From the sequence record PZ445427.1: a DNA stretch of 64,000 nt; one strand, written 5' to 3'. The notes below the pieces were generated by a model, which saw nothing but the letters and a program-made list of their open reading frames with translations, ran no database searches and was not told the origin of the DNA. The number at the start of each line of letters is the position of its first letter. The first letter of the stretch is position 1. The position numbers and the translations under genes are program-made. The DNA comes from a phage. This document shows, in pieces, positions 44,191 through 52,999 of the stretch.

Positions 44191-44424
44191 TTACGATTCT
44201 TTGAGCAAAGAAGCAAGTTCAGCATAGACTTTATCTAACTCAAAGCCAATGCGAAGAGACACACGAGTCTTCCGTTGTTTAAGTAACCATATGGAGACGT
44301 TAGGGATGCCAGCGAGACGAGGTGGTACAACCCTACATAGTTTCTCCGCAGTATCGTAAACAGAAGTTTTACGTTCTTTTACGGGAAACTTCCTTGTTTC
44401 CCACTTTTTATTCTTCGCTGTCAT
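44191..44424 (-). CDS. Hypothetical small basic protein
   Basis: ORF starting MTAKNKKWETRK..., overlapping the stop of the upstream large gene by about 17 nt. Confidence 0.35.
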   Translation of the reverse strand: MTAKNKKWETRKFPVKERKTSVYDTAEKLCRVVPPRLAGIPNVSIWLLKQRKTRVSLRIGFELDKVYAELASLLKES

Positions 44425-47197
44425 TTCTAGCCCCCAATTCAGCAAGAGCTTCCTCATGCATCTGACGTTCTTCATCTGTCATAAACTTAACTGGAATCGG
44501 CATACATTCGATCTTACAGTAAGTTCTGTACCAGTCCACAATCTTTTCCGTATCCAGATCTTTACCGATACCCATCATGCCAAGATACATACGAGCATAT
44601 TTTGGGTTAGCGCTCTGACCTGTCTTAAGGAAGAAATCCTTCTTCTTATTCTTAAGAGCTTCGATAAACGGTTTGATTGTTACGTTTGAACACTTTTTAA
44701 TATCTTCCCAGAACATGTCGTGCATCTTATGGAAGAATGCAGCTCTATCGTTTGGTTTATCCTTGATATACTGTTCAACGTGTTCCACTGTTACATCTTT
44801 AATAGAATCCAGATGATAATAGCGAACCAGAAGTAACTTGGCTTCATAGGCATCTGCATGACGTGGTGCACAATATTCAGGAGTTGAGTGCAAAATAGCT
44901 TTGATTCGCTCTTCTGTATACTCTTTTCCTGCACCTTCGATAGTTCCCCAGCTTTCGCTGAAAATATCGATAGTTGCACCCTGATCAAGCAGATAATAAC
45001 GCAAAGTACTAGTATAGTTTCTAGATTCCAGCTCACGACGACGTGCGTACAGTTGTTGGGCTAACTCAATCCAACCTTCGTCAATATTATATTGCTCGGA
45101 ACCCGCAGAAAATCCACTCGTAGATTTATCAATAAAATAATAAATGTTCTGAGCACCACGGTCGCGCCTGATTGCTTGAAAACGCATGTTTGGCGCTTGG
45201 TTTGAGGTTCGAGTGATAACAAATACGTTATCAAAATAGTTAAAGTCAACACCACTTGTTACAGATGGACTACATAATAAACAATCAATCTGTTGATCAA
45301 TTAGCTCATTAGTTGTATAATCCAGAATACGACGGATATCTACATCAGACGTAGAGTTTGAGTGAATTTCTTTAACTAACGCACCTGTATTACGACGTAA
45401 TGCCATTCCCTTTTCATTCAGTTCATCCGGTCCACAGTCAGATACTAGGATTGATTTCTCACCCATCTCTAGAGATGTTTGAAGTGCAACCCAAATACTG
45501 GATTCGTCAGGGAATTCATAAGCGTGAGCTTTCGCCAGCATTTTACGGTGGTGATTATAAAATGCGACTGGTTTATCAAAATCAATCAAAGAACCATAGG
45601 CTTCAATCGTTTCTGCACTGATATCACCATCAGATAAGATCACCGTTTTAGCAGTAATAAGAATATCGCGAAGAACCTGTATACATTCACGACGGTTTTT
45701 AACAACCGGAGCGAATAACAGATCATTCATTACTGCGTCACATTCATCAATAAAGATCGTATCAATCTGACCCACAAAGCTCTTGAACTTATGGATAGAG
45801 TGAATAGTTGAAGACATACGATCAATGGCACCACGTTTGAAGTTCAGCATATCAACTGACTTATCATACTGACCAGCACTGAATTTCTTCGCGTTTGAAG
45901 ATACAAGTGCCCTAGTATTCGTGATTGCAATAAAGTTTCCTGGAAGAACACCTGCATCTAGCCACTTAGTTACTGCTGTGGTTTTACCTGTACCAAGACT
46001 TGCCTTAACAAATGTTAAATGTCCTTTTGGTGGTACAATGTTAATTTTCAGGTATGGAACTTCTGGTGGAGAATCTGTATCCAGACGTTTTAATGGTACG
46101 CCTTTTAAGTTGGGCGGAATCTCACGTTTGGAGTTATTTACAAAGGCTTTGAGAGCCTGCTTACGACCGTTATTAAAGTAATCTTGAATATTACGACTAT
46201 TATCTTTAGTTGCAATATATTCAGATAAAGCTGGTTTAATCTCACGTTCTAACCACGTAAAGTCAACACCATCTTCTAACGCTCTGTGATAAAGTTTTGG
46301 GATAATACGCAGGTACACCCCATCCTCAGCTTCTTCTAGTTCGCTGATGGTTTCTTCCACTTTATCAGATGCAGCCTTCTTGCCTTTAATTTGGTCAAGT
46401 AAGGAGTAGAATTCTTCTTTAAACTCACCTCTAGTTGTTTCAAAGTCAACTAGGTTATTGGGTAGATTCACTTTCGAACCCTTAACATACACAAGACGTG
46501 GTTTATTCTCCGCTTTAAACGGATCGACTATACCATCATCAAATAAGGGATCTGCGAAATAGTGAAGCTGAACAGAAGAATAATAAGCTAAGTCAGCAAT
46601 ATCAAAGCCATACTTTTGCTTACTACTGTCATTGATGGATGTAAATAAGAATTTTAATTGCCCCTGCGTTACCTTGACATTAGATTCTAGCATTAAGTGC
46701 ATTCGGATACCTGGTTTTAATCCAGCCGAAGACGATGCATGAGCAATAAACCCTGCATCAAGAGGAAACATATCCTCACTAATACTATTCAACATCTTAA
46801 TAATATGACGTGCCATGCCAACAAGATTAAACTTGTCATAGCCACCAGTATCTACAATACCATCCACGTCCATAGCGATAATATGACTAGGATTGGATAC
46901 GTTAAAGTTTCCTCTGGTACGACGCACATTATCTTTTGGGGCTAGACATTTACCACGAATAGCTACAATATGCGGGTCTTTGGTAAGACGACGCATGATA
47001 GGTAACATTTCAGCAAGGTTTTGCGGGTCAAGTTCTTCAAGTACATCAAATTTGAAGGGCATGGAAGCTGGTTTACCTTCTGGATGCTCTTTAGAGAATC
47101 GCTTTGCAAAGGTGTAATCTTCCACTTTGATCTCTTTCCAGATGCCAGTGGCTTTATCTCTGGAAAATCCTGCGTGACCTTGTAGGATTGAGAACAC
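44408..47197 (-). CDS. Large replication-associated P-loop ATPase / SF2 helicase-like protein (putative origin-binding or replication initiation helicase)
   Basis: Walker A KASLGTGKTT and DExD-like Walker B IFIDECD in the middle of a 930-970 aa protein; track start is 47320, but the first 41 codons are Cys/Asn-rich low complexity; an in-frame GTG at 47197 has an AGGAG RBS at 7-nt spacing. Confidence 0.55.
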   Translation of the reverse strand: MFSILQGHAGFSRDKATGIWKEIKVEDYTFAKRFSKEHPEGKPASMPFKFDVLEELDPQNLAEMLPIMRRLTKDPHIVAIRGKCLAPKDNVRRTRGNFNVSNPSHIIAMDVDGIVDTGGYDKFNLVGMARHIIKMLNSISEDMFPLDAGFIAHASSSAGLKPGIRMHLMLESNVKVTQGQLKFLFTSINDSSKQKYGFDIADLAYYSSVQLHYFADPLFDDGIVDPFKAENKPRLVYVKGSKVNLPNNLVDFETTRGEFKEEFYSLLDQIKGKKAASDKVEETISELEEAEDGVYLRIIPKLYHRALEDGVDFTWLEREIKPALSEYIATKDNSRNIQDYFNNGRKQALKAFVNNSKREIPPNLKGVPLKRLDTDSPPEVPYLKINIVPPKGHLTFVKASLGTGKTTAVTKWLDAGVLPGNFIAITNTRALVSSNAKKFSAGQYDKSVDMLNFKRGAIDRMSSTIHSIHKFKSFVGQIDTIFIDECDAVMNDLLFAPVVKNRRECIQVLRDILITAKTVILSDGDISAETIEAYGSLIDFDKPVAFYNHHRKMLAKAHAYEFPDESSIWVALQTSLEMGEKSILVSDCGPDELNEKGMALRRNTGALVKEIHSNSTSDVDIRRILDYTTNELIDQQIDCLLCSPSVTSGVDFNYFDNVFVITRTSNQAPNMRFQAIRRDRGAQNIYYFIDKSTSGFSAGSEQYNIDEGWIELAQQLYARRRELESRNYTSTLRYYLLDQGATIDIFSESWGTIEGAGKEYTEERIKAILHSTPEYCAPRHADAYEAKLLLVRYYHLDSIKDVTVEHVEQYIKDKPNDRAAFFHKMHDMFWEDIKKCSNVTIKPFIEALKNKKKDFFLKTGQSANPKYARMYLGMMGIGKDLDTEKIVDWYRTYCKIECMPIPVKFMTDEERQMHEEALAELGARNDSEE

Positions 47198-47693
47198 AAC
47201 AATACTCCTATGTTGGTTATTCGGATATCTTTCTTTAGGACTATTCAAAAGAATAGAACAACTATTACTACCATTTACACAAACATTAATCATCATCAAG
47301 CAGTATGAATAAGTTATCATACCTCAGTGCTGCGCTCTCTTAACTCTTATCCAGATCAGAACCTAGGTCATTGGCCGCTAAGCCGATTCTGATTGCCCTC
47401 ACTATCCTATTGGTAGGTGGCTACTGGACGTGTCACCATTCGCTGCTCTTTTCGTTCGCACCCCCATATAAAGCTCTGCCTATATAACGAGCTAAATATG
47501 CACGGTTTGGATTTACCTTTCCGAATTCAGGGTACGCAGATCACTTAATTGATAATTAACTAATGCAGTATAAACACTAGTAATAGTTAAAACAACCCTT
47601 AATGGGGCAGCCTAACTGTTCCGTATTGCGGATTGTAAACAAGAAAAATTAGCAAAATCAATTTTTACTAATGTCTCTCAATTCAATATAAAT

Positions 47694-47722
47694 ATTATAT
47701 CAAGATTTTGAGCATCCTGCAA
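47694..47722 (-). promoter_or_regulatory. Sigma70 promoter with no adjacent ORF, heading into the long untranslated region
   Basis: On the - strand TTGCAG, 17-nt spacer, TATAAT, followed by ATTTATATTGAATTGAGAGAC leader; next credible start codon is 370-500 nt downstream. Confidence 0.5.
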
Positions 47723-47760
47723 GTAAAATTTTTCCGAAGGTGCTATCAGTGTCTTTGAGC

Positions 47761-47790
47761 ACAGAGAAAACCGAGCCAAAATGACTCGGT
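47761..47790 (-). terminator. Intrinsic terminator at the end of the Sir2-like operon
   Basis: On the - strand hairpin ACCGAG-TCATTTTGG-CTCGGT followed by TTTTCTCTG. Confidence 0.55.
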
Positions 47791-47813: not shown

Positions 47814-48209
47814 TCAATCATCATTTAGGCCTGGAACATAGATCCCAATGCGATTTAATTGACCTTTAGCTTCTTCGAGAATATCTTCGGTGTACTCCCA
47901 AATATCATCTTCTACTTGCAAAAGATAAGGGGATTCACCAGTTTCGGGGTCACGTGTAATGGCTAAGCCACGTGGATGGAATATAGAGAAGTTGAGGGCA
48001 ACAATCAAGCCCATACTGGACAATTCATTCCAGTCAGCTTCCCAACCATCATCTTCATCTTCGTCCACAAAGACACCTACACTAGGGTCTGTTACAGAAG
48101 TAAACGGAAATGTTACACTAACCTTGTCAACCCCCAACCAACGTGCAAGGAGCCCTTCAGCACGCTCTACCAAACTAGGATCTATCTGACGCCAAAATAC
48201 TTGTTCCAT
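47814..48209 (-). CDS. Hypothetical protein, tandem paralog 2
   Basis: 131 aa; shares motif pattern W.EL..MGL..ALN..F.P.......TGE.P...V......Y..E......L.R.G...PGL with the 142-aa upstream ORF. Confidence 0.5.
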   Translation of the reverse strand: MEQVFWRQIDPSLVERAEGLLARWLGVDKVSVTFPFTSVTDPSVGVFVDEDEDDGWEADWNELSSMGLIVALNFSIFHPRGLAITRDPETGESPYLLQVEDDIWEYTEDILEEAKGQLNRIGIYVPGLNDD

Positions 48210-48218
48210 TCTGCCTCC

Positions 48219-48647
48219 TTAAGCAGTTAAACCTGGGATCATATACCCGAAACGACGAAGTTTCTGAATCCCCTCATTTACTTCTTCGGGCGAATATGAC
48301 CAGCCCTCACGTTCATTTACCTGGAAAGCAGGAGCTTCACCAGTGCGATAGTTTACAATAAGACGGTGATTTGCAGGCATAAACAGCTTATGGTTCAAGG
48401 CAAAAACCAGACCCATTTCATCGAGTTCTTTCCAGTCTACAATTTCTTCTACTCCCTCACCTAAATCCACGCTAACTCCAATACATGGAGCTTCCTCTAG
48501 TGGGCCTTTAAAGGATAGGAAGATATCGTTATTCTCACACCAAATCTTAAGCAGATTGATGGTTTCATTATACATACCATTAGGGAGAGAACGCCAGAAG
48601 TTGAGGAGCATAGGGTTTACCTCTTTCATGAAAAGATTATCGAACAT
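48219..48647 (-). CDS. Hypothetical protein, tandem paralog 1
   Basis: 142 aa; paralogous to 47814-48209. Confidence 0.5.
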   Translation of the reverse strand: MFDNLFMKEVNPMLLNFWRSLPNGMYNETINLLKIWCENNDIFLSFKGPLEEAPCIGVSVDLGEGVEEIVDWKELDEMGLVFALNHKLFMPANHRLIVNYRTGEAPAFQVNEREGWSYSPEEVNEGIQKLRRFGYMIPGLTA

Positions 48648-48649
48648 AT

Positions 48650-49165
48650 TTACACCTTAAGTTTCTGAAGAGCCTTACACATTTCAAGATCTGGACTAAA
48701 CTCCAGCATATAGCTGATAGCATTTAAATCTTGAAGGTTTATTCCAGTCCTGCCATTTACAATAACAGTAGGGAATTGGTACATCATAGCACCAGCATCA
48801 TCTAGGACACACCAATGCTTGAGCTTATATTTTTCGACGAAACGTAAAACAGAATTACCCCGAGATAAACCACCTCCAGTAAAATCTGTTGTACCAAGGA
48901 AACGATCGATCAAACCGAGTCCGGTCATAATCTGAACGTTCTCCATTTCATTTCGTACAGAAAACCATGAAGAGACCCCAACAATCATTATTGGGGAGGG
49001 TTTAAGAAAGTTCTGAAAAGCCTGGAGTAATGGCTTATAAACCCAATCACTGCCAAAGAACAGCTTTTCACTGTCTGGAGCATGATGGTGAGAGATGCTC
49101 GAATTGAGCACCCCATCAATATCCAGGAAAATCACAGGAGTATTACTTATTTCCACCAGTAGCAT
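48650..49165 (-). CDS. HAD-superfamily phosphatase / nucleotidase-like hydrolase
   Basis: 171 aa; N-terminal HAD motif I VIFLDIDGVLN (DxDG[V/T]); later VLDDAG acidic motif. Confidence 0.6.
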   Translation of the reverse strand: MLLVEISNTPVIFLDIDGVLNSSISHHHAPDSEKLFFGSDWVYKPLLQAFQNFLKPSPIMIVGVSSWFSVRNEMENVQIMTGLGLIDRFLGTTDFTGGGLSRGNSVLRFVEKYKLKHWCVLDDAGAMMYQFPTVIVNGRTGINLQDLNAISYMLEFSPDLEMCKALQKLKV

Positions 49166-49328
49166 CCCACGTCCAGACTTTAACTTCCTCAGTAAAAGGA
49201 ACCGGAACCTTCAATTCACCTTTACCCCACATAACAGATAGGAACAGAGAATAAATGGTAATCATACCGATTAGGTTGACAAACCATACTAGACCTTTCC
49301 AGATACCCTTAAAAATCTTCTTTATCAT
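49143..49328 (-). CDS. Small predicted membrane protein
   Basis: 61 aa with one hydrophobic helix (GLVWFVNLIGMITIYSLFLSVMW); ATGA coupling with the upstream gene. Confidence 0.4.
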   Translation of the reverse strand: MIKKIFKGIWKGLVWFVNLIGMITIYSLFLSVMWGKGELKVPVPFTEEVKVWTWDATGGNK

Positions 49329-49540
49329 TCGTTCTCCTCTAGGAACGCTTTATGTTCCGGTGTGTCGATATAGATTACACAGAAATCATCTGACATATAA
49401 TCCATTTCCCACAACTCTTCACGATAGCACCATGTTTTATCTGGCCATACAATTATATCATCAGGGTGTCTTTTAGGCGATTTGTAAAATCGGGGGTCTG
49501 ATCCCATATCTCCCATTTTACCCTTATTAGGATGCGACAT
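49325..49540 (-). CDS. Hypothetical small protein
   Basis: 71 aa ORF overlapping the Sir2-like gene end by 14 nt. Confidence 0.4.
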   Translation of the reverse strand: MSHPNKGKMGDMGSDPRFYKSPKRHPDDIIVWPDKTWCYREELWEMDYMSDDFCVIYIDTPEHKAFLEENE

Positions 49541-50369
49541 AAATAGTTCCTTCCATAAAGGCTTCTACTTGACCAATGAAATGCTTGTTACCAAAAACTT
49601 CGGCAGCTCCAGCCCGCCATACAGTAACACCACGTTTCTCATATTCAAGCTGTTCATCATAGCGAACTTGAGGGTTAACAACCATCATCTTAGTTCCACG
49701 ACATACAGCAGGGAATAGTTCCCAGTTGAAGTCAATCACTTGGTTGCTACAACCTACCACAATAACCATATCATTACTAGTAAGCGTATCAAACAGGTTA
49801 ATCTGACCCATATACCACGGAGCCGTCTCACCAAAGAATGTTACGTTTGGTTTTACCCATTCGTAATCTTCAGGGGCAATCGCAGTATACCCAACATCTT
49901 CGATGATTTGATTGCGACCCTGACGATAGATCACCTCTTTCAAGTACCCGTGAGCGTGAATGATTTCATCACGAGGGATACCAGCACGTTCCAGAAGGTC
50001 ATCAACGTTAGTAGTGAAGTTCTTCACGCTATCCGCATCATAACGCTGGAACCATTCTGCAATTCGCAGATGGGCAATGTTAGGCTCAACAGTCTGTAAT
50101 TCCTGACGACGCATGTTGTAGAACTCATGAGTCTTGAGATACAGATCGTTACCATCTTCATCAATGCCAGGGAAACGAGCACTGAAGTAGTTAGGATCAT
50201 CTTCACCACAGAAGCGACGGAAGCCAGCTTCAAAGTTAGGCAAGCTACATACTTCCTCTAGATCGTACTCATCCCACAAGGATTTCCCACTAGCAGTATC
50301 AGTACGGAAAGCACGAACACCACTATCTACACTCAAACCTGCACCACTAACAACGATTAGTCTACGCAT
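49527..50369 (-). CDS. Sir2/CobB-like NAD-dependent deacylase or NADase lacking the zinc-ribbon insert
   Basis: Sirtuin motifs in order: GAGLSVDSGVRAFR (GAGIS..SGIP.FR), TTNVDDL...IHAHG (QNID...HG), VTFFGE (FGE), VVGCS (VVGTSL); no Cys tetrad for a Zn ribbon. Confidence 0.8.
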   Translation of the reverse strand: MRRLIVVSGAGLSVDSGVRAFRTDTASGKSLWDEYDLEEVCSLPNFEAGFRRFCGEDDPNYFSARFPGIDEDGNDLYLKTHEFYNMRRQELQTVEPNIAHLRIAEWFQRYDADSVKNFTTNVDDLLERAGIPRDEIIHAHGYLKEVIYRQGRNQIIEDVGYTAIAPEDYEWVKPNVTFFGETAPWYMGQINLFDTLTSNDMVIVVGCSNQVIDFNWELFPAVCRGTKMMVVNPQVRYDEQLEYEKRGVTVWRAGAAEVFGNKHFIGQVEAFMEGTIYVAS

Positions 50370-50563
50370 TATACGATTCCTTGCTTGAATCCTTCGATGA
50401 TATTTTGGAGCAGAATTGCTTCTTCTGGGCGAACCTTCTCTTGCTTAATAAGTATATCCAAACCAGCAATACAGGTAGCTACTCCAGCATTATACCCAGC
50501 ATTCCACTGCTCCATGAGCATATTTTCTAAATTACTTTTTAGATTCTGATTCAAGAAGTCCAT
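50369..50563 (-). CDS. Hypothetical small protein (first gene of the Sir2-like operon)
   Basis: ATG at 50563 (MDFLNQNLK...) preceded by GGAGG RBS; stop overlaps the Sir2-like start (TAATG). Confidence 0.4.
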   Translation of the reverse strand: MDFLNQNLKSNLENMLMEQWNAGYNAGVATCIAGLDILIKQEKVRPEEAILLQNIIEGFKQGIV

Positions 50564-50735
50564 AAAGTTTTTCCTCCAATTCCATAATACGATTTTCGTA
50601 AGAAGCACGCAGCTTCTCGATGGACAAAGCACGAACTGTAACTTCATCTGAATTGATCGCTAGCTGAGCTAGATCTTCTGTTTCCATACGTCCGTTGTAA
50701 ATTAAGCGATATTTAAGATGTTTTACGTTTTTCAT
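50532..50735 (-). CDS. Hypothetical small protein
   Basis: 67 aa, ATG at 50735 preceded by AAGGA RBS; coiled-coil-like C-terminus. Confidence 0.4.
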   Translation of the reverse strand: MKNVKHLKYRLIYNGRMETEDLAQLAINSDEVTVRALSIEKLRASYENRIMELEEKLYGLLESESKK

Positions 50736-50744
50736 TCTTGTTCC

Positions 50745-51026
50745 TTAGTTCTGTACTGTAAATTCATTCTTATCACAGTGAGCATAATAATACCCATACA
50801 TACGATAAATTTTAACAGCCTTAGTAGATCCTTTGGATTCTTCATAATCAATCCAGAGCCACTTGTCTTTACCTACATAATGTACCCGAAACTTCTTAAC
50901 TTTCTTATCATTCCATGTTGCAACAACACGACGATAATCAAATCCGCCTAACCAATCGAGAGCCTTACGTTCATCACTAGGCTCTCCAAGATGTGAAACA
51001 TCTACTTTAGGAAGCAATTCGCTCAT
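50745..51026 (-). CDS. Hypothetical protein
   Basis: 93 aa; own promoter and TTTGAGAGGAG RBS. Confidence 0.45.
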   Translation of the reverse strand: MSELLPKVDVSHLGEPSDERKALDWLGGFDYRRVVATWNDKKVKKFRVHYVGKDKWLWIDYEESKGSTKAVKIYRMYGYYYAHCDKNEFTVQN

Positions 51027-51054: not shown

Positions 51055-51083
51055 ATTATACATAAGTTTTAGCTCGAAAGCAA
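51055..51083 (-). promoter_or_regulatory. Early sigma70 promoter for gene 50745-51026
   Basis: On the - strand TTGCTT, 17-nt spacer, TATAAT, then ...ATAAATTTGAGAGGAG... and ATG. Confidence 0.6.
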
Positions 51084-51087
51084 ATAA

Positions 51088-51118
51088 AATAAAAGCCAGG
51101 TCGACTAGCAACCTGGCT
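51088..51118 (-). terminator. Intrinsic terminator after nrdD
   Basis: On the - strand hairpin AGCCAGG...CCTGGCT followed by TTTTATTTTATTT. Confidence 0.65.
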
Positions 51119-51124
51119 GATTCA

Positions 51125-52999
51125 TTATTTAGCGCGAATGTCCTGATGTTTCACTCGACCCATAACCTCATGTTGTTTGCCTGGGTTAAATGGACGAGCA
51201 CCTGGATTTCCAAGATATCCGCAAACTCGACGAGTTACCTCAAGAGTCTCAGGATCATGATTGCCACAAATTGGGCATTTGAAACCATCCTCAGAAGCTA
51301 TAGTTTCACCCAAGAACCCACATTCCCCACAAGAGTCTACTGGAGTATTAATACCGAAGTAATGAACTTTACTTGCAGCATAGTTAATAACCCATTCCAG
51401 TGCATCAGGGAATCGTTTCATATCCGGTAATTCCACATAGGAAATGCACCCACCAGAAGCAATAGGAGTAAAGTTAGACTCATAATCAAACTTCACATTT
51501 GGAGCAACCTTACGTTCTACATCAAGGTGATGGGAATTAGTGTAATATCCTTTAGCCAGAATATCTTCATGCTCTGGGAAATACTCACGGTCTAGGCGAC
51601 AGAAGCGATCACATAGAGATTCAGATGGTGTAGCATACAGACTATACCCTAATTGAGTCTCTTCCTTCTTCTGATCAGCACGATCACGCATGTATTGTAG
51701 CACACGTTGAACGAACTTGATACAAGACTCAGACATTGTATCTACATCTTTACCAAACATGAGTTGCAACATTTCGTGGCAGCCAATATATCCTAGGGAT
51801 ACAGAAGCACGCTTGTAGAAATGATCAAATACATATTCATCTGGCCCCAGACGTAATCCAAAGGCTCCTGACATATAGAGGATGGGCGCAGCTTTAGCTT
51901 GAATGTATTTTAAGCGATCAACCCTCCACTCCAATCCTTTTAACGCGGTATCCACACGCAGCTCAAGCAGATCGAAGAATAGATCAATATTTCCTTCCGC
52001 TTCGATAGCAATTCGAGGAAGGTTCACAGAAACAACACCTAAGTTATTACGGCCAGAAGTTTCACCATCTTCCGCAGCAGCTAGGAATGAACGACAGCCC
52101 ATAGAGACTTTGTAGTCACCAGTAACTTCTACAACCTTATCATAACTGATATAGTCAGGATACATACGTTCAGCAGTACATTTCATAGCTAACTTCTTGA
52201 TATCATAGTTAACATCACCAGGTTTCATGTTAACACCATCACGAAGTACAAATACCAGTTTAGGGAAGATAGCTGTACGTTTATTAATACCCAAACCATC
52301 CATACGCACTTCTAAGATTGCTTTCTGTACAAGACGTGCTTCCCAAGAAGTTCCTAGACCAAAACCAAAGGTAATAAATGGACTCTGACCATTAGAGTTG
52401 AACATCGTATTGATCTCATACTCTAGACCCTGACAGGCATCGTAAACTTCCTTCTCAGTCATTTCCGTAGCCATTACAGATGCTTTAGCTTCATCCTTAG
52501 TCCAACGTTTTGCAAACGCATGATTCTTATCATAAGACTTACGAACATAAGGAGCCAATACTTCATCTAATCGGTCTACAGAAGTACCACCATATTGATG
52601 TGAACTAACCTGAGTGATAATCTGAGCTGTGATAGCAGCCGCAGTAGTAATAGAGTTTGGCGTACTGATTTCAGCATTACCAACCTTCATACCGTTTTTC
52701 AACATATCTTCCAAAGCAACCAGGCAACAGTTAGTCATACCTAACGCAGCGTAATCAGCATCATGGAAGTGAATATCACCAATCATGTGAGCATTTCGAA
52801 TCTGGATTGGCATTTCTTCCAGAATCAGATATTTACTCAATTCCCCTGCAAGCATGTCCCTTTGTGTAGGGAAACGTTCTGAGGGCTTATTGGCATTATT
52901 AAACAGCAGCTCTTCATCTGCTGAACCTTCGATAATTTCTTTGCAGTTTCGAATCAAGGACTGCATTCCTTTATACTTTAGTTCTTCATTGCGATTCAT
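51125..52999 (-). CDS. nrdD: Anaerobic ribonucleoside-triphosphate reductase (class III), NrdD
   Basis: 624 aa; C-terminal glycyl-radical motif RVCGYLG preceded by the Cys cluster CGECG...CPICG; AAGGAGGG RBS. Confidence 0.9.
   Translation of the reverse strand: MNRNEELKYKGMQSLIRNCKEIIEGSADEELLFNNANKPSERFPTQRDMLAGELSKYLILEEMPIQIRNAHMIGDIHFHDADYAALGMTNCCLVALEDMLKNGMKVGNAEISTPNSITTAAAITAQIITQVSSHQYGGTSVDRLDEVLAPYVRKSYDKNHAFAKRWTKDEAKASVMATEMTEKEVYDACQGLEYEINTMFNSNGQSPFITFGFGLGTSWEARLVQKAILEVRMDGLGINKRTAIFPKLVFVLRDGVNMKPGDVNYDIKKLAMKCTAERMYPDYISYDKVVEVTGDYKVSMGCRSFLAAAEDGETSGRNNLGVVSVNLPRIAIEAEGNIDLFFDLLELRVDTALKGLEWRVDRLKYIQAKAAPILYMSGAFGLRLGPDEYVFDHFYKRASVSLGYIGCHEMLQLMFGKDVDTMSESCIKFVQRVLQYMRDRADQKKEETQLGYSLYATPSESLCDRFCRLDREYFPEHEDILAKGYYTNSHHLDVERKVAPNVKFDYESNFTPIASGGCISYVELPDMKRFPDALEWVINYAASKVHYFGINTPVDSCGECGFLGETIASEDGFKCPICGNHDPETLEVTRRVCGYLGNPGARPFNPGKQHEVMGRVKHQDIRAK

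What the first reader, a model, noticed from the sequence alone, without database searches (positions are those of the whole stretch)
47814..50563. Seven-gene translationally coupled early operon built around a zinc-ribbon-less Sir2-like enzyme and a HAD phosphatase
Between the nrdD region and a terminator at about 47761-47790 lie seven minus-strand ORFs with overlapping or abutting stop/start codons: a 64-aa protein, a Sir2/CobB-like protein (49527-50369), a 71-aa protein, a 61-aa single-helix membrane protein, a HAD-family phosphatase (48650-49165) and two paralogous proteins of 142 and 131 aa. The Sir2-like protein has every catalytic sirtuin motif (GAGLSVDSGVRAFR, TNVDD...IHAHG, FGE, VVGCS) but no Cys tetrad, the architecture seen in NAD-consuming Sir2 effectors as well as short CobB deacylases. 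A phage carrying an NAD-dependent enzyme together with a phosphatase and unknown partners in one coupled transcription unit suggests a host-takeover or anti-defence module acting on NAD or ADP-ribose metabolism or on protein acylation. From sequence alone I cannot tell NADase from deacetylase, and I do not know whether this operon has been characterised in T5-like phages.
Basis: partly seen in the sequence, partly recalled or inferred. Interest (0 to 1): 0.6.

Follow-up and report, generated by a model that had tools for sequence, protein, structure and literature searches.

The report
Known T5 early sirtuin–phosphatase gene block
This is the already-annotated early gene block of T5-like phages (T5.100–T5.107), carrying a zinc-less CobB-like sirtuin, a small HAD phosphatase and two proteins of unknown fold; it is real and intact, dispensable in the laboratory, already discussed in the literature, and still biochemically untested.

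Summary
The seven ORFs exist exactly as described, in a T5-like Salmonella phage 99.9% identical to SIY1lw. The transcription unit is larger than reported. It has nine ORFs (51026→47814, minus strand), running from a conserved promoter just after the nrdD terminator to the terminator at 47790–47770. It corresponds to T5.100–T5.107, which T5's record already marks with a promoter and terminators.

The sirtuin belongs to a phage-specific, uniformly zinc-less and acidic clade. Its closest relatives by sequence and fold are the deacylases CobB and SIRT5. All NAD-binding and catalytic residues and the class III YxxR pair are invariant, and it matches no defence-type Sir2 model. The phosphatase is an intact HAD_SAK_2 enzyme. 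The paralogues are DUF7415 proteins with no known fold relative.

The block is a mosaic, not a purpose-built module:
- Klebsiella T5-like phages have Sir2 plus DUF7415 without the HAD.
- DT57C lost Sir2 and the HAD in one deletion but kept DUF7415.
- rV5-like phages place the same sirtuin among RNA-repair genes.

Published knockdown data score T5 Sir2 and HAD as not fitness-relevant, and T5.107 as relevant. Two in-silico hypotheses already exist: a deacetylase (2016) and a KptA-like RNA 2'-phosphate remover (2022). I favour the deacylase, weakly. Already known; moderate-to-low interest.

The parts
51094..51118 (-). Intrinsic terminator of nrdD; marks the upstream boundary of the unit
   Evidence: 10-bp stem followed by a T run. 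RNA fold -16.1 kcal/mol, z = -4.35. Nearly invariant in T5-like phages and annotated as a terminator in T5.
51055..51083 (-). Sigma-70-type promoter TTGCTT-N17-TATAAT ahead of the 93-aa ORF (inferred)
   Evidence: Read directly from the sequence. Both hexamers are invariant in five T5-like phages. It lies within the stretch annotated as a promoter in T5. The scanner missed it because the -35 hexamer matches only 3 of 6 positions.
50745..51026 (-). 93-aa ORF, first gene of the unit (phrog_7953, unknown function); present in only some T5-like phages
   Evidence: A GAGAGGAG Shine-Dalgarno sequence lies upstream.
50532..50735 (-). 67-aa ORF, orthologue of T5.101 (phrog_5236, unknown function)
   Evidence: 91% identical to T5.
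50369..50563 (-). 64-aa ORF (phrog_5827, unknown function); overlaps the 67-aa ORF by 32 nt, and its stop codon overlaps the Sir2 start codon by 1 nt
49527..50369 (-). 280-aa phage-clade sirtuin (T5.102 equivalent): CobB/SIRT5-like, zinc-less, acidic, catalytic residues intact
   Evidence: Pfam SIR2, 78 bits. Nearest solved structure is CobB 1s5p, E = 3e-16. AF2 pLDDT 88.6, and Foldseek top hits are CobB, Sir2Af1 and SIRT5. Invariant residues are listed. No CxxC in any of 63 clade members.
49325..49540 (-). 71-aa ORF (phrog_5116; T5.103 and T5.104 both belong to this family), unknown function
49143..49328 (-). 61-aa single-pass membrane protein (phrog_11166); present in only a minority of T5-like phages
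   Evidence: (TMD note in Sw2).
48650..49165 (-). 171-aa HAD phosphatase of the HAD_SAK_2 family (T5.105 equivalent); all four HAD motifs intact
   Evidence: Pfam PF18143, 65.8 bits. DxDGV, SSW, R and DD are conserved in the window, T5, My1 and Aeromonas phage Ah1. Public records mislabel it 'Sir2' through phrog_18062.
48219..48647 (-). 142-aa DUF7415 protein, paralogue A (T5.106 equivalent)
   Evidence: Pfam PF24187, 9e-37. 31% identical to paralogue B.
47814..48209 (-). 131-aa DUF7415 protein, paralogue B (T5.107 equivalent); very acidic (pI 4.05); fold has no known relative
47770..47790 (-). Intrinsic terminator ending the unit
   Evidence: 9-bp stem followed by a T run. Fold -15.7 kcal/mol, z = -3.74. 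T5 has a terminator annotated at the equivalent position.

Best explanation
Shown: this is the Epseptimavirus copy of the T5 early transcription unit T5.100-T5.107. It has nine tightly packed ORFs, read from one conserved sigma-70-type promoter (51083-51055) to one terminator (47790-47770). It is a mosaic cassette of accessory genes, not a dedicated multi-protein machine.

Its largest gene encodes a phage-specific sirtuin derived from the CobB/SIRT5 (class III) lineage. That protein lost the four zinc cysteines but keeps every NAD+-binding and catalytic residue and the anion-binding Tyr-x-x-Arg pair.

Inferred mechanism: early in infection the enzyme uses NAD+ to remove acyl groups (acetyl, and probably succinyl-type acidic acyls) from lysines of host or phage proteins, releasing nicotinamide and O-acyl-ADP-ribose. 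This would reset an acylated host proteome in the phage's favour. The NAD+ supply would be backed by the phage's own PnuC/NadR-type salvage genes.

The HAD_SAK_2 phosphatase and the two DUF7415 proteins are co-transcribed but separable functions, more likely acting on phosphorylated nucleotides or nucleic-acid ends. All of these genes are conditionally useful accessories rather than core genes.
For: Identity and boundaries:
- 99.9% identical to phage SIY1lw.
- Syntenic with T5.100-T5.107, which T5's record annotates with a promoter and terminators.
- Promoter and terminator sequences are conserved, and junctions overlap.

Deacylase-like sirtuin:
- Best PDB sequence hits are CobB, then archaeal Sir2 and SIRT5.
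- The AF2 model (pLDDT 88.6) superposes best on CobB (TM 0.82), Sir2Af1 and SIRT5. All top-50 hits are protein deacylases.
- GAGxS, FR, N121, D123, H140, FFGE and GxS are invariant in 63 clade members, as are Y84 and R87 of the class III YxxR element.
- No PADLOC defence-Sir2 model matches.
- Skliros et al. 2016 reached the same deacetylase reading for the Vibrio-phage members and noted the missing zinc ligands (PMC5107563).

NAD+ context: the close relative Sw2 encodes a PnuC-like transporter and a NadR-like adenylyltransferase.

Against direct RNA binding: the clade is uniformly acidic, pI 4.6-6.1, and this protein carries a net charge of -17.

Separability of the parts:
- Sugarlandvirus has Sir2 plus two DUF7415 proteins but no HAD.
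- DT57C lacks Sir2 and the HAD but keeps the DUF7415 pair.
- Sir2 is 52% identical to T5's while the HAD is 91% identical.
- 27 of 59 Sir2 loci have neither HAD nor DUF7415 nearby.

Accessory status:
- T5.102 and T5.105 knockdowns are 'Not Fit' (PMC11879866 supplement).
- The Bas54 sirtuin tolerates dense transposon insertion.
Against: - No enzymology exists for any member of this clade, so the deacylase activity is inferred from homology alone.
- The canonical Gln of TQNID is an invariant Thr, and the zinc site is gone. Substrate and chemistry may therefore have shifted.
- It scores far below the NCBIfam CobB equivalog cut-offs (70.6 vs 320 bits).
- In rV5/PVP-SE1-like phages the same sirtuin is embedded among RNA ligase, polynucleotide kinase, phosphoesterase and MazG genes.
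- In Aeromonas phage Ah1 the HAD and a DUF7415-core gene flank rnlA. This context points to RNA-end repair (Iyer et al. 2022, PMC9503650).
- The hosts already have CobB, so the benefit of a second deacylase is unclear.
- The YxxR pair could bind a phosphate as well as a carboxylate.
Confidence: 0.4

Rival explanations
1. RNA-end repair (Iyer, Burroughs, Anantharaman and Aravind 2022). The sirtuin acts like KptA/Tpt1. It transfers ADP-ribose from NAD+ onto an RNA 2'-phosphate left after resolution of a 2',3'-cyclic end made by a host anticodon nuclease, and the phosphate leaves as ADP-ribose 1''-2'' cyclic phosphate. The HAD_SAK_2 phosphatase trims terminal phosphates or processes the ADPr>P product. 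A host ligase seals the tRNA.
For: - This is a published contextual inference naming the T5-like phage SP15.
- I confirmed independently that 12 of 59 sirtuin loci carry the full Rnl + PNK + metallophosphoesterase + MazG + DNA ligase cluster, and two more a partial one.
- A jumbo-phage locus has an RnlA-like gene 2.3 kb away.
- The two families that follow Sir2 in T5-like phages (HAD_SAK_2 and the DUF7415 core) lie beside rnlA and near cca in the T4-like phage Ah1. A DUF7415-core gene lies 3 kb from an RNA ligase in Roth22.
- Pfam defines the HAD family from RNA-repair 'Swiss Army Knife' proteins.
- Sirtuin chemistry formally parallels the two Tpt1 steps: an oxygen nucleophile attacks C1', then the ribose 2'-OH attacks the electrophilic centre (established mechanism; my inference).
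- The invariant YxxR anion site could hold a phosphate.
Against: - Neither the window nor the first 50 kb of the close relative Sw2, which together span a T5-like genome, contains a homologue of the RNA ligase, kinase or phosphoesterase panel.
- Sugarlandvirus carries the sirtuin without the HAD.
- 13 of 59 loci have essentially none of these partners.
- The whole clade is strongly acidic, whereas RNA-end enzymes are generally basic (for the acidity; the comparison is background knowledge).
- The fold retains the narrow peptide-type cleft of CobB.
- The same T4-like and T5-like regions are also nucleotide-metabolism clusters (td, frd, nrd), so the adjacency is ambiguous.
- No experimental follow-up was found.
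Confidence: 0.3
2. NAD+ glycohydrolase, or destroyer of NAD-derived signals. The sirtuin hydrolyses NAD+ or an ADPr-based immune signal, either to shut down the host or to blunt Thoeris/CBASS-like defences. The HAD removes phosphates from the products.
For: - Zinc-less Sir2 domains with intact catalytic residues are the NADase effectors of several defence systems (background summarised in PMC9503650).
- The gene is dispensable on laboratory hosts, as anti-defence genes usually are.
- It sits in an early unit.
Against: - No match to any PADLOC Sir2 model.
- Pfam assigns it to SIR2 proper, and no other family reached E <= 0.1.
- The nearest folds are all deacylases.
- Substrate-pocket residues (YxxR, FFGE) are invariant, which a plain NADase would not need.
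- The close relative Sw2 invests in NAD+ salvage. T5-like phages also use an NAD+-dependent DNA ligase (background knowledge). Draining NAD+ would therefore harm the phage itself.
Confidence: 0.1
3. Macromolecular ADP-ribosyltransferase. Like SirTM or the T4 Alt/Mod enzymes, the sirtuin ADP-ribosylates a host protein such as RNA polymerase or a translation factor, or a nucleic acid, to redirect host functions.
For: - Sirtuins can ADP-ribosylate, and Iyer et al. treat most conflict-system sirtuins as ADP-ribosyltransferases.
- Expression is early.
- The Gln-to-Thr change in the NAD pocket could alter partitioning between deacylation and ADP-ribosylation (inference).
Against: - No macrodomain or other ADPr-reversing partner occurs among the nine proteins of the unit.
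- Its closest relatives are deacylases, not SirTM.
- No direct evidence exists.
Confidence: 0.1
4. The block is a functionally coupled multi-protein module: Sir2, the HAD, the DUF7415 pair and the small ORFs act together on one pathway.
For: - Single promoter-to-terminator unit with overlapping genes.
- Sir2 followed by a DUF7415 pair is found in all 32 T5-like loci examined.
- Sir2 and the HAD were lost together in DT57C.
Against: - The synteny is confined to one phage family, so it is not independent evidence.
- The DT57C loss is one contiguous deletion.
- The HAD is missing in Sugarlandvirus and in L025.
- The DUF7415 pair persists without Sir2 in DT57C.
- Outside T5-like phages the sirtuin never has HAD or DUF7415 within 10 kb.
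- HAD homologues are common in Aeromonas T4-like phages (33 records), a group absent from the ten commonest hosts of the sirtuin; I did not check individual genomes.
- Knockdown phenotypes differ within the unit: T5.107 is 'Fit' and the rest are 'Not Fit'.
- The sirtuin allele has been exchanged independently of its neighbours.
Confidence: 0.1

Closest known systems
Phage T5 early unit T5.100-T5.107 (NC_005859, 55.7-59.0 kb)
   Same: Same position after nrdD. The terminator-promoter sequence is nearly identical. The gene order is the same: small ORFs, Sir2, phrog_5116 small ORFs, HAD, DUF7415 A, DUF7415 B, terminator.
   Different: - The window has nine ORFs and T5 has eight.
- The first ORF differs (93 aa, phrog_7953, versus T5.100, phrog_11748).
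- The window has a 64-aa ORF and a 61-aa membrane ORF; T5 instead has two phrog_5116 copies.
- The sirtuin is a different allele: 52% identical, with a ~27-aa insertion.
E. coli CobB and human SIRT5 (class III sirtuin protein deacylases)
   Same: Best sequence and fold match. It shares the GAGxS, FR, N-x-D, catalytic His, FGE and GxS motifs and the YxxR acidic-acyl recognition pair.
   Different: - No zinc-binding cysteines.
- Thr replaces the Gln of TQNID.
- Strongly acidic.
- Phage-specific clade, scoring far below the CobB equivalog cut-offs.
- Activity untested.
Phage sirtuin 'RNA-repair' neighbourhoods of Iyer et al. 2022 (type 3, phage SP15: sirtuin plus SAK-like HAD)
   Same: This locus is an instance of their type 3 neighbourhood. 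SP15 proteins appear among the DUF7415 orthologues (P0154). The HAD belongs to Pfam HAD_SAK_2.
   Different: - They did not mention the DUF7415 pair, the absence of the HAD in Sugarlandvirus, the DT57C deletion, the lack of any RNA ligase in T5-like genomes, or the fitness data.
- Their KptA-like mechanism is a prediction only.
Defence-associated Sir2 NADases (ThsA, DSR1/2, SIR2-HerA, short-pAgo Sir2)
   Same: Sir2-superfamily Rossmann domain without a zinc ribbon, found in a phage-host conflict setting.
   Different: - No PADLOC match.
- Different Pfam family.
- No sensor or partner domains.
- Encoded by the phage rather than the host.
- The nearest structures are deacylases.
T4 Pnkp/Rnl1 tRNA repair, and the rV5-type Rnl-PNK-phosphoesterase-sirtuin cluster
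   Same: The HAD superfamily phosphatase chemistry is that of the T4 Pnkp 3'-phosphatase domain (established knowledge). The same sirtuin clade is adjacent to these genes in rV5-like phages.
   Different: T5-like phages have no RNA ligase or polynucleotide kinase homologue of those types. The HAD here is a stand-alone 171-aa protein with no solved relative.

Membership tests
Sirtuin / Pfam SIR2 (PF02146) | Profile match above the curated gathering score | tested here: met
   78.1 bits against a cut-off of 24, E = 1.1e-21.
Sirtuin / Pfam SIR2 (PF02146) | NAD+-binding GAGxS...FR loop, N-x-D of the (T/S)QNxD motif, catalytic His-Gly, FGE and G-x-S motifs | tested here: met
   G9 A10 G11 S13 F21 R22 N121 D123 H140 G141 F178 F179 E181 G206 S208 are invariant in 63 homologues, and aligned to CobB. 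The Gln of TQNID is an invariant Thr (T120).
Sirtuin / Pfam SIR2 (PF02146) | Small domain with a Cys4 zinc ribbon | tested here: not met
   No Cys at the CobB zinc-ligand positions, and 0 of 63 clade members have a CxxC in the segment. The AF2 model still predicts beta strands there: E141-150, E153-158, E172-176.
Sirtuin / Pfam SIR2 (PF02146) | Sirtuin two-domain fold | tested here: met
   Foldseek against CobB 1s5p: E = 3.5e-15, target-normalised TM-score 0.82.
Class III sirtuins (CobB/SIRT5 deacylases) | Tyr-x-x-Arg pair that recognises acidic acyl groups | tested here: met
   F83-Y84-N85-M86-R87-R88 aligns with CobB FYNARR. Y84 and R87 are invariant and present even in the Vibrio phage ValKK3.
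Class III sirtuins (CobB/SIRT5 deacylases) | Equivalog-level similarity to CobB (NCBIfam cut-off) | tested here: not met
   NF040867: 70.6 bits against a cut-off of 320. NF001753: 88.6 against 243.
Class III sirtuins (CobB/SIRT5 deacylases) | NAD+-dependent lysine deacylase activity | not testable with these tools
   No biochemical data were found for any phage-clade member.
Defence-type Sir2 NADase effectors (ThsA, DSR, SIR2-HerA, pAgo-Sir2) | Match to a defence Sir2 profile, or presence of partner or sensor domains | tested here: not met
   None of the nine proteins of the unit has a PADLOC hit at E <= 0.1. The only Pfam hit for the sirtuin is SIR2 proper. No defence Sir2 appears in the top 50 fold matches.
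SirTM-type ADP-ribosylating sirtuins | Genetic linkage to a macrodomain protein | tested here: not met
   No macrodomain Pfam hit among the nine proteins of the unit.
KptA/Tpt1-like RNA 2'-phosphotransferase system (functional analogy, Iyer et al. 2022) | Co-occurrence with RNA ligase and end-healing genes | tested here: inconclusive
   Met in 12 of 59 loci, plus 2 partial ones, of rV5/PVP-SE1-like phages. Not met in T5-like genomes: no Rnl, PNK or MPE homologue in the window or in Sw2 1-50 kb. The HAD_SAK_2 gene is the only partner here.
KptA/Tpt1-like RNA 2'-phosphotransferase system (functional analogy, Iyer et al. 2022) | NAD+-dependent removal of an RNA 2'-phosphate | not testable with these tools
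   Needs enzymology. The acidic net charge (-17; clade pI 4.6-6.1) argues weakly against RNA binding.
HAD superfamily, Pfam HAD_SAK_2 (PF18143) | Profile match above the gathering score | tested here: met
   65.8 bits against a cut-off of 27.5, covering 1-138 of 139 profile positions.
HAD superfamily, Pfam HAD_SAK_2 (PF18143) | Four catalytic motifs: DxDx(T/V), S/T, K/R, DD | tested here: met
   L-D-I-D-G-V, V-S-S-W, G-G-x-x-R and L-D-D are conserved in the window, T5, My1 and Ah1 homologues.
HAD superfamily, Pfam HAD_SAK_2 (PF18143) | Action on RNA terminal phosphates | not testable with these tools
   This is a prediction attached to the Pfam family and to Iyer et al. 2022. No solved relative exists (only tag artefacts). 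The founding paper (Burroughs and Aravind 2016) was not held.
DUF7415 (PF24187) | Profile match above the gathering score | tested here: met
   125.5 and 98.2 bits against a cut-off of 27. The profile search found 175 cluster representatives, with the core at profile positions 56-110.
Single transcription unit (operon) | One promoter, one terminator, no strong internal signals, tight or overlapping junctions | tested here: met
   and the T5 annotation. Co-transcription itself was not measured.

The most novel reading that the evidence does not exclude
The phage-clade sirtuin is not a protein deacylase but the first sirtuin acting on nucleic acid ends. It would be an NAD+-dependent RNA 2'-phosphate remover that evolved from a CobB-like ancestor by re-using the class III anion pocket, working with the HAD_SAK_2 phosphatase. 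Separately, the structurally orphan DUF7415 proteins, whose distal copy matters for T5 fitness, would represent a new nucleotide- or RNA-associated phage function.
Probability: 0.25. Interest if true: 0.75.

Novelty: already known. Interest (0 to 1): 0.32.

Why it matters
Sirtuins encoded by virulent phages are widespread. I found them in 976 phage records across T5-like, rV5-like, phAPEC8-like, Vibrio T4-like and jumbo phages, and I found no biochemical test of any of them.

Deciding between the two published readings, a protein deacylase or a KptA-like RNA-end enzyme, would answer one of two questions. Either phages rewrite the host acylome, or the sirtuin fold has acquired a nucleic-acid repair chemistry. 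Either outcome bears on the current picture of NAD+ as a battleground between phages and bacterial immunity.

For this window specifically, the value lies in clarification. The locus is a known, annotated T5 block. Public annotation of it is partly wrong: the HAD gene carries a second 'Sir2' label, and DUF7415 proteins are labelled 'tail tube protein' or 'exonuclease'. The most consistent partner of the sirtuin in T5-like phages is the DUF7415 pair, not the HAD.

Tried and rejected
- **PADLOC scan of all nine proteins:** no hits, so I rejected membership of known defence or anti-defence families.
- **NCBIfam:** only sub-threshold CobB-type hits.
- **Word-indexed homologue searches for DUF7415:** reached only T5-like orthologues. 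The full-library profile search was needed to see the mobile core.
- **Two long 'fusion' hits (P0208, P0267):** low-complexity false positives.
- **AFDB50 fold library:** unavailable.
- **PDB sequence search with the HAD:** returned only apparent His-tag/TEV-leader artefacts.
- **Internal duplication in DUF7415:** hhalign of the N-terminal half against the C-terminal half gave probability 32%, so this is not supported.
- **Burroughs and Aravind 2016 (definition of the SAK HAD):** could not be retrieved.
- **Literature searches:** found no biochemistry on phage sirtuins, no mention of DUF7415, and no T5 transcript map.
- **'acb1' label on a DUF7415-core gene in phage Roth22:** I judged it probably a mis-annotation. 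Apparently equivalent genes in similar phages are annotated as hypothetical, and no 2H-type His-x-Thr motif is present in the window's DUF7415 proteins. I did not read the Roth22 protein itself.
- **Stephanstirmvirinae neighbours of the sirtuin:** no Pfam domains.

Full report
**What the window is.** The 3.5 kb around the finding is 99.9% identical to Salmonella phage vB_SalS-SIY1lw and 97–98% identical to many Epseptimavirus genomes (T5-like, Demerecviridae). 550 phage records match at the DNA level.

**Observation.**
- All seven ORFs are present on the minus strand at the stated coordinates.
- Pfam assigns the 280-aa protein to SIR2 (E = 1e-21), the 171-aa protein to HAD_SAK_2 (7e-18), and the 142- and 131-aa proteins to DUF7415 (9e-37 and 3e-28). 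The small ORFs have no Pfam family, although each belongs to a PHROG of unknown function.
- The two DUF7415 proteins are true paralogues, 31% identical with E 1e-13 to 1e-16.
- The terminator at 47790–47770 is detected and folds with z = −3.7.
- Gene junctions are −32, −1, −14, −4, −23, +2 and +9 nt.

**Correction of the boundaries.**
The 67-aa ORF overlaps the 64-aa ORF by 32 nt.
- The nrdD terminator (51118–51094, z = −4.35) is followed directly by TTGCTT-N17-TATAAT (51083–51055) and a strong Shine-Dalgarno sequence ahead of the 93-aa ORF.
- This terminator-promoter stretch is almost invariant among T5-like phages, even where the nrdD alleles are only 60% identical. It coincides with the terminator and promoter annotated in phage T5.
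- The unit therefore has nine ORFs and corresponds to T5.100–T5.107. T5's record brackets that block with a promoter and two terminators.

**The sirtuin.**
- Its best solved relatives by sequence are E. coli CobB (1s5p, 3e-16), archaeal Sir2 proteins and SIRT5.
- An AlphaFold model built on 63 homologues (pLDDT 88.6) superposes best on CobB (target-normalised TM 0.82), then Sir2Af1 and SIRT5. The top 50 matches are all protein deacylases and include no defence Sir2.
- Across the 63 homologues (56–96% identical), these residues are invariant: GAGxS, F21-R22, N121, D123, H140-G141, F178-F179-x-E181 and G206-x-S208. So are Y84 and R87, which align with the CobB/SIRT5 YxxR pair that recognises acidic acyl groups.
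- Three features are clade-specific. Thr replaces the Gln of TQNID. There are no zinc cysteines, with 0 of 63 members having a CxxC in that segment. The clade is uniformly acidic (pI 4.6–6.1; this protein has net charge −17).
- The protein scores well below the NCBIfam CobB equivalog cut-offs and matches no PADLOC model.
- The zinc-less feature was already noted for the Vibrio-phage members by Skliros et al. 2016. They listed T5 among the carriers and proposed deacetylation of host enzymes such as acetyl-CoA synthetase (PMC5107563).

**The HAD.**
- Motifs I–IV (DxDGV, SSW, a conserved Arg, DD) are conserved from this phage to the T4-like Aeromonas phage Ah1, so the enzyme should be active.
- It has no solved relative.
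- PHROG 18062, labelled 'Sir2', is really the C-terminal half of this HAD. That explains why T5.105 and many RefSeq records carry a second, spurious 'Sir2' annotation.

**DUF7415.**
- A full-library profile search found 175 cluster representatives. Most share only a ~55-residue core (profile positions 56–110), usually in 70–200-aa phage proteins.
- Informative fusions join the domain to thymidylate kinase, a MazG-like dATP/dGTP pyrophosphohydrolase, and a DUF3850/ASCH domain.

**Is it one module?** I scanned 59 sirtuin loci from IMG/VR with a panel of this unit's proteins and of RNA-repair genes.
- All 32 T5-like loci have nrdD upstream and the DUF7415 pair downstream. The HAD is missing in Sugarlandvirus and one other lineage, which I confirmed in phiKp_27. 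The 93-, 64-, 71- and 61-aa ORFs are variable.
- Twelve rV5/PVP-SE1-like loci, plus two partial ones, place the sirtuin among RNA ligase, polynucleotide kinase, metallophosphoesterase, MazG and DNA ligase genes, with no HAD or DUF7415.
- Thirteen loci (phAPEC8-like, jumbo) have essentially none of these partners.
- The sirtuin here is only 52% identical to T5's, while the adjacent HAD is 91% identical. It also shares a ~27-aa insertion with Klebsiella T5-like, phAPEC8-like and Erwinia phages. The allele has therefore been exchanged in place.
- Phage DT57C carries a deletion that fuses Sir2 residues 197–250 to HAD residues 135–171. This removes both enzymes and the small ORFs between them, but the DUF7415 pair is retained.
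- Together these findings describe a mosaic accessory cassette rather than a machine built around Sir2.

**Published function data.**
- CRISPRi-ART knockdown of T5 scored T5.100–T5.106 as 'Not Fit', including Sir2 (p = 0.72) and the HAD (p = 0.81). T5.107, the orthologue of the distal DUF7415 paralogue, scored 'Fit' (p = 0.02). One caveat is that the origin-binding gene T5.108 also scored 'Not Fit' (PMC11879866 supplement).
- In the V5-like phage Bas54, the sirtuin and the adjacent RNA ligase, kinase and phosphoesterase genes tolerate dense transposon insertion and show no significant difference in the condition comparisons retrieved from supplement file 9, whose conditions I did not identify (HIDEN-SEQ supplement).

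**Mechanistic hypotheses.**
- Iyer et al. 2022 already described this clade and its three neighbourhood types. They named the T5-like phage SP15 for the 'sirtuin plus Swiss-army-knife-like HAD' type, and proposed a KptA/Tpt1-like removal of RNA 2'-phosphates (PMC9503650 section 3.7.3). I found no experimental follow-up.
- In favour of that idea, the HAD and a DUF7415-core gene flank rnlA, and lie near cca, in Aeromonas phage Ah1. The rV5-type context is also robust.
- Against it, a T5-like genome contains no homologue of the RNA ligase, kinase or phosphoesterase panel. The sirtuin occurs without the HAD. The clade is strongly acidic. The same regions are also nucleotide-metabolism clusters.
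- A plain NADase role fits poorly with the invariant substrate-pocket residues, and with the PnuC-like and NadR-like NAD+ salvage genes of the close relative Sw2.
- On balance I favour an active CobB-type deacylase (0.4) over the KptA-like RNA-end enzyme (0.3). NADase, ADP-ribosyltransferase and coupled-module readings follow at about 0.1 each. These alternatives overlap: the coupled-module reading concerns the organisation of the block rather than the sirtuin's chemistry, so the figures are not meant to sum to one.

**Verdict.** The block is already annotated in T5, already discussed in silico, and already fitness-profiled, so it is not novel. What remains open, and directly testable, is the substrate of the phage sirtuin and the role of the orphan DUF7415 proteins.

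Noticed in passing
window 48650-49165 (HAD gene): PHROG 18062, labelled 'Sir2 (NAD-dependent deacetylase)', matches residues 80-171 of this HAD phosphatase. The error propagates as a second 'Sir2' annotation in T5 (T5.105) and many RefSeq T5-like genomes.
   Followed up: yes
L008 (phage DT57C) 3968-4240: The 'defective sir2' ORF is a fusion of Sir2 residues 197-250 to HAD residues 135-171. It results from a natural deletion that removes both enzymes and the small ORFs between them, while the DUF7415 pair remains.
   Followed up: yes
window 49527-50369, residues ~50-77 of Sir2: The sirtuin carries a ~27-aa insertion shared with Klebsiella T5-like, phAPEC8-like and Erwinia phages but absent from T5, rV5/PVP-SE1-like and Vibrio phages and from CobB. 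Sir2 is 52% identical to T5's while the neighbouring HAD is 91% identical. This indicates allele exchange in place.
   Followed up: partly
window 51125-52999 (nrdD) and loci L012-L066: nrdD exists as two alleles (~60% and ~98% identical to the window) among otherwise similar T5-like phages. The terminator-promoter stretch downstream of it stays nearly invariant.
   Followed up: partly
public records for homologues of window 47814-48647 and 49527-50369: Several annotations are evidently wrong: DUF7415-B as 'tail tube protein', DUF7415-A as 'exonuclease', the sirtuin as 'tail assembly protein', and a DUF7415-core gene in Klebsiella phage Roth22 as 'anti-CBASS protein acb1'.
   Followed up: partly
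L071 (phage Sw2) 37284-39018, outside the window: The close relative Sw2 encodes a PnuC-like nicotinamide riboside transporter and a NadR-like NMN adenylyltransferase, which together form an NAD+ salvage route. This is relevant to any NAD-consuming phage enzyme.
   Followed up: no
L010 (Aeromonas phage Ah1) 2423-4984: In this T4-like phage a 77-aa DUF7415-core protein sits directly next to rnlA. The HAD_SAK_2 homologue lies about 2 kb away between td and nrdA.1, and cca is a few genes further on.
   Followed up: partly
phage records MG065661, MG065646, MG065692 ('Campylobacter phage' C9, D1, C13): These records carry sirtuin and HAD genes nearly identical to those of rV5-like and T5-like enterobacterial phages. 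The host labels look doubtful.
   Followed up: no
window 47321-47769: A gap of about 450 nt with no long ORF lies between the unit's terminator and the 970-aa origin-binding/helicase gene (44408-47320). T5 annotates a promoter in the equivalent gap. I did not examine it.
   Followed up: no
window 48650-49165, HAD residues 24-40: The stretch SHHHAPDSEKLFFGSD produces spurious PDB sequence hits. The alignments fall on the N-terminal HHHH...ENLYFQ stretch of those chains, which looks like a His-tag/TEV-site expression leader.
   Followed up: yes
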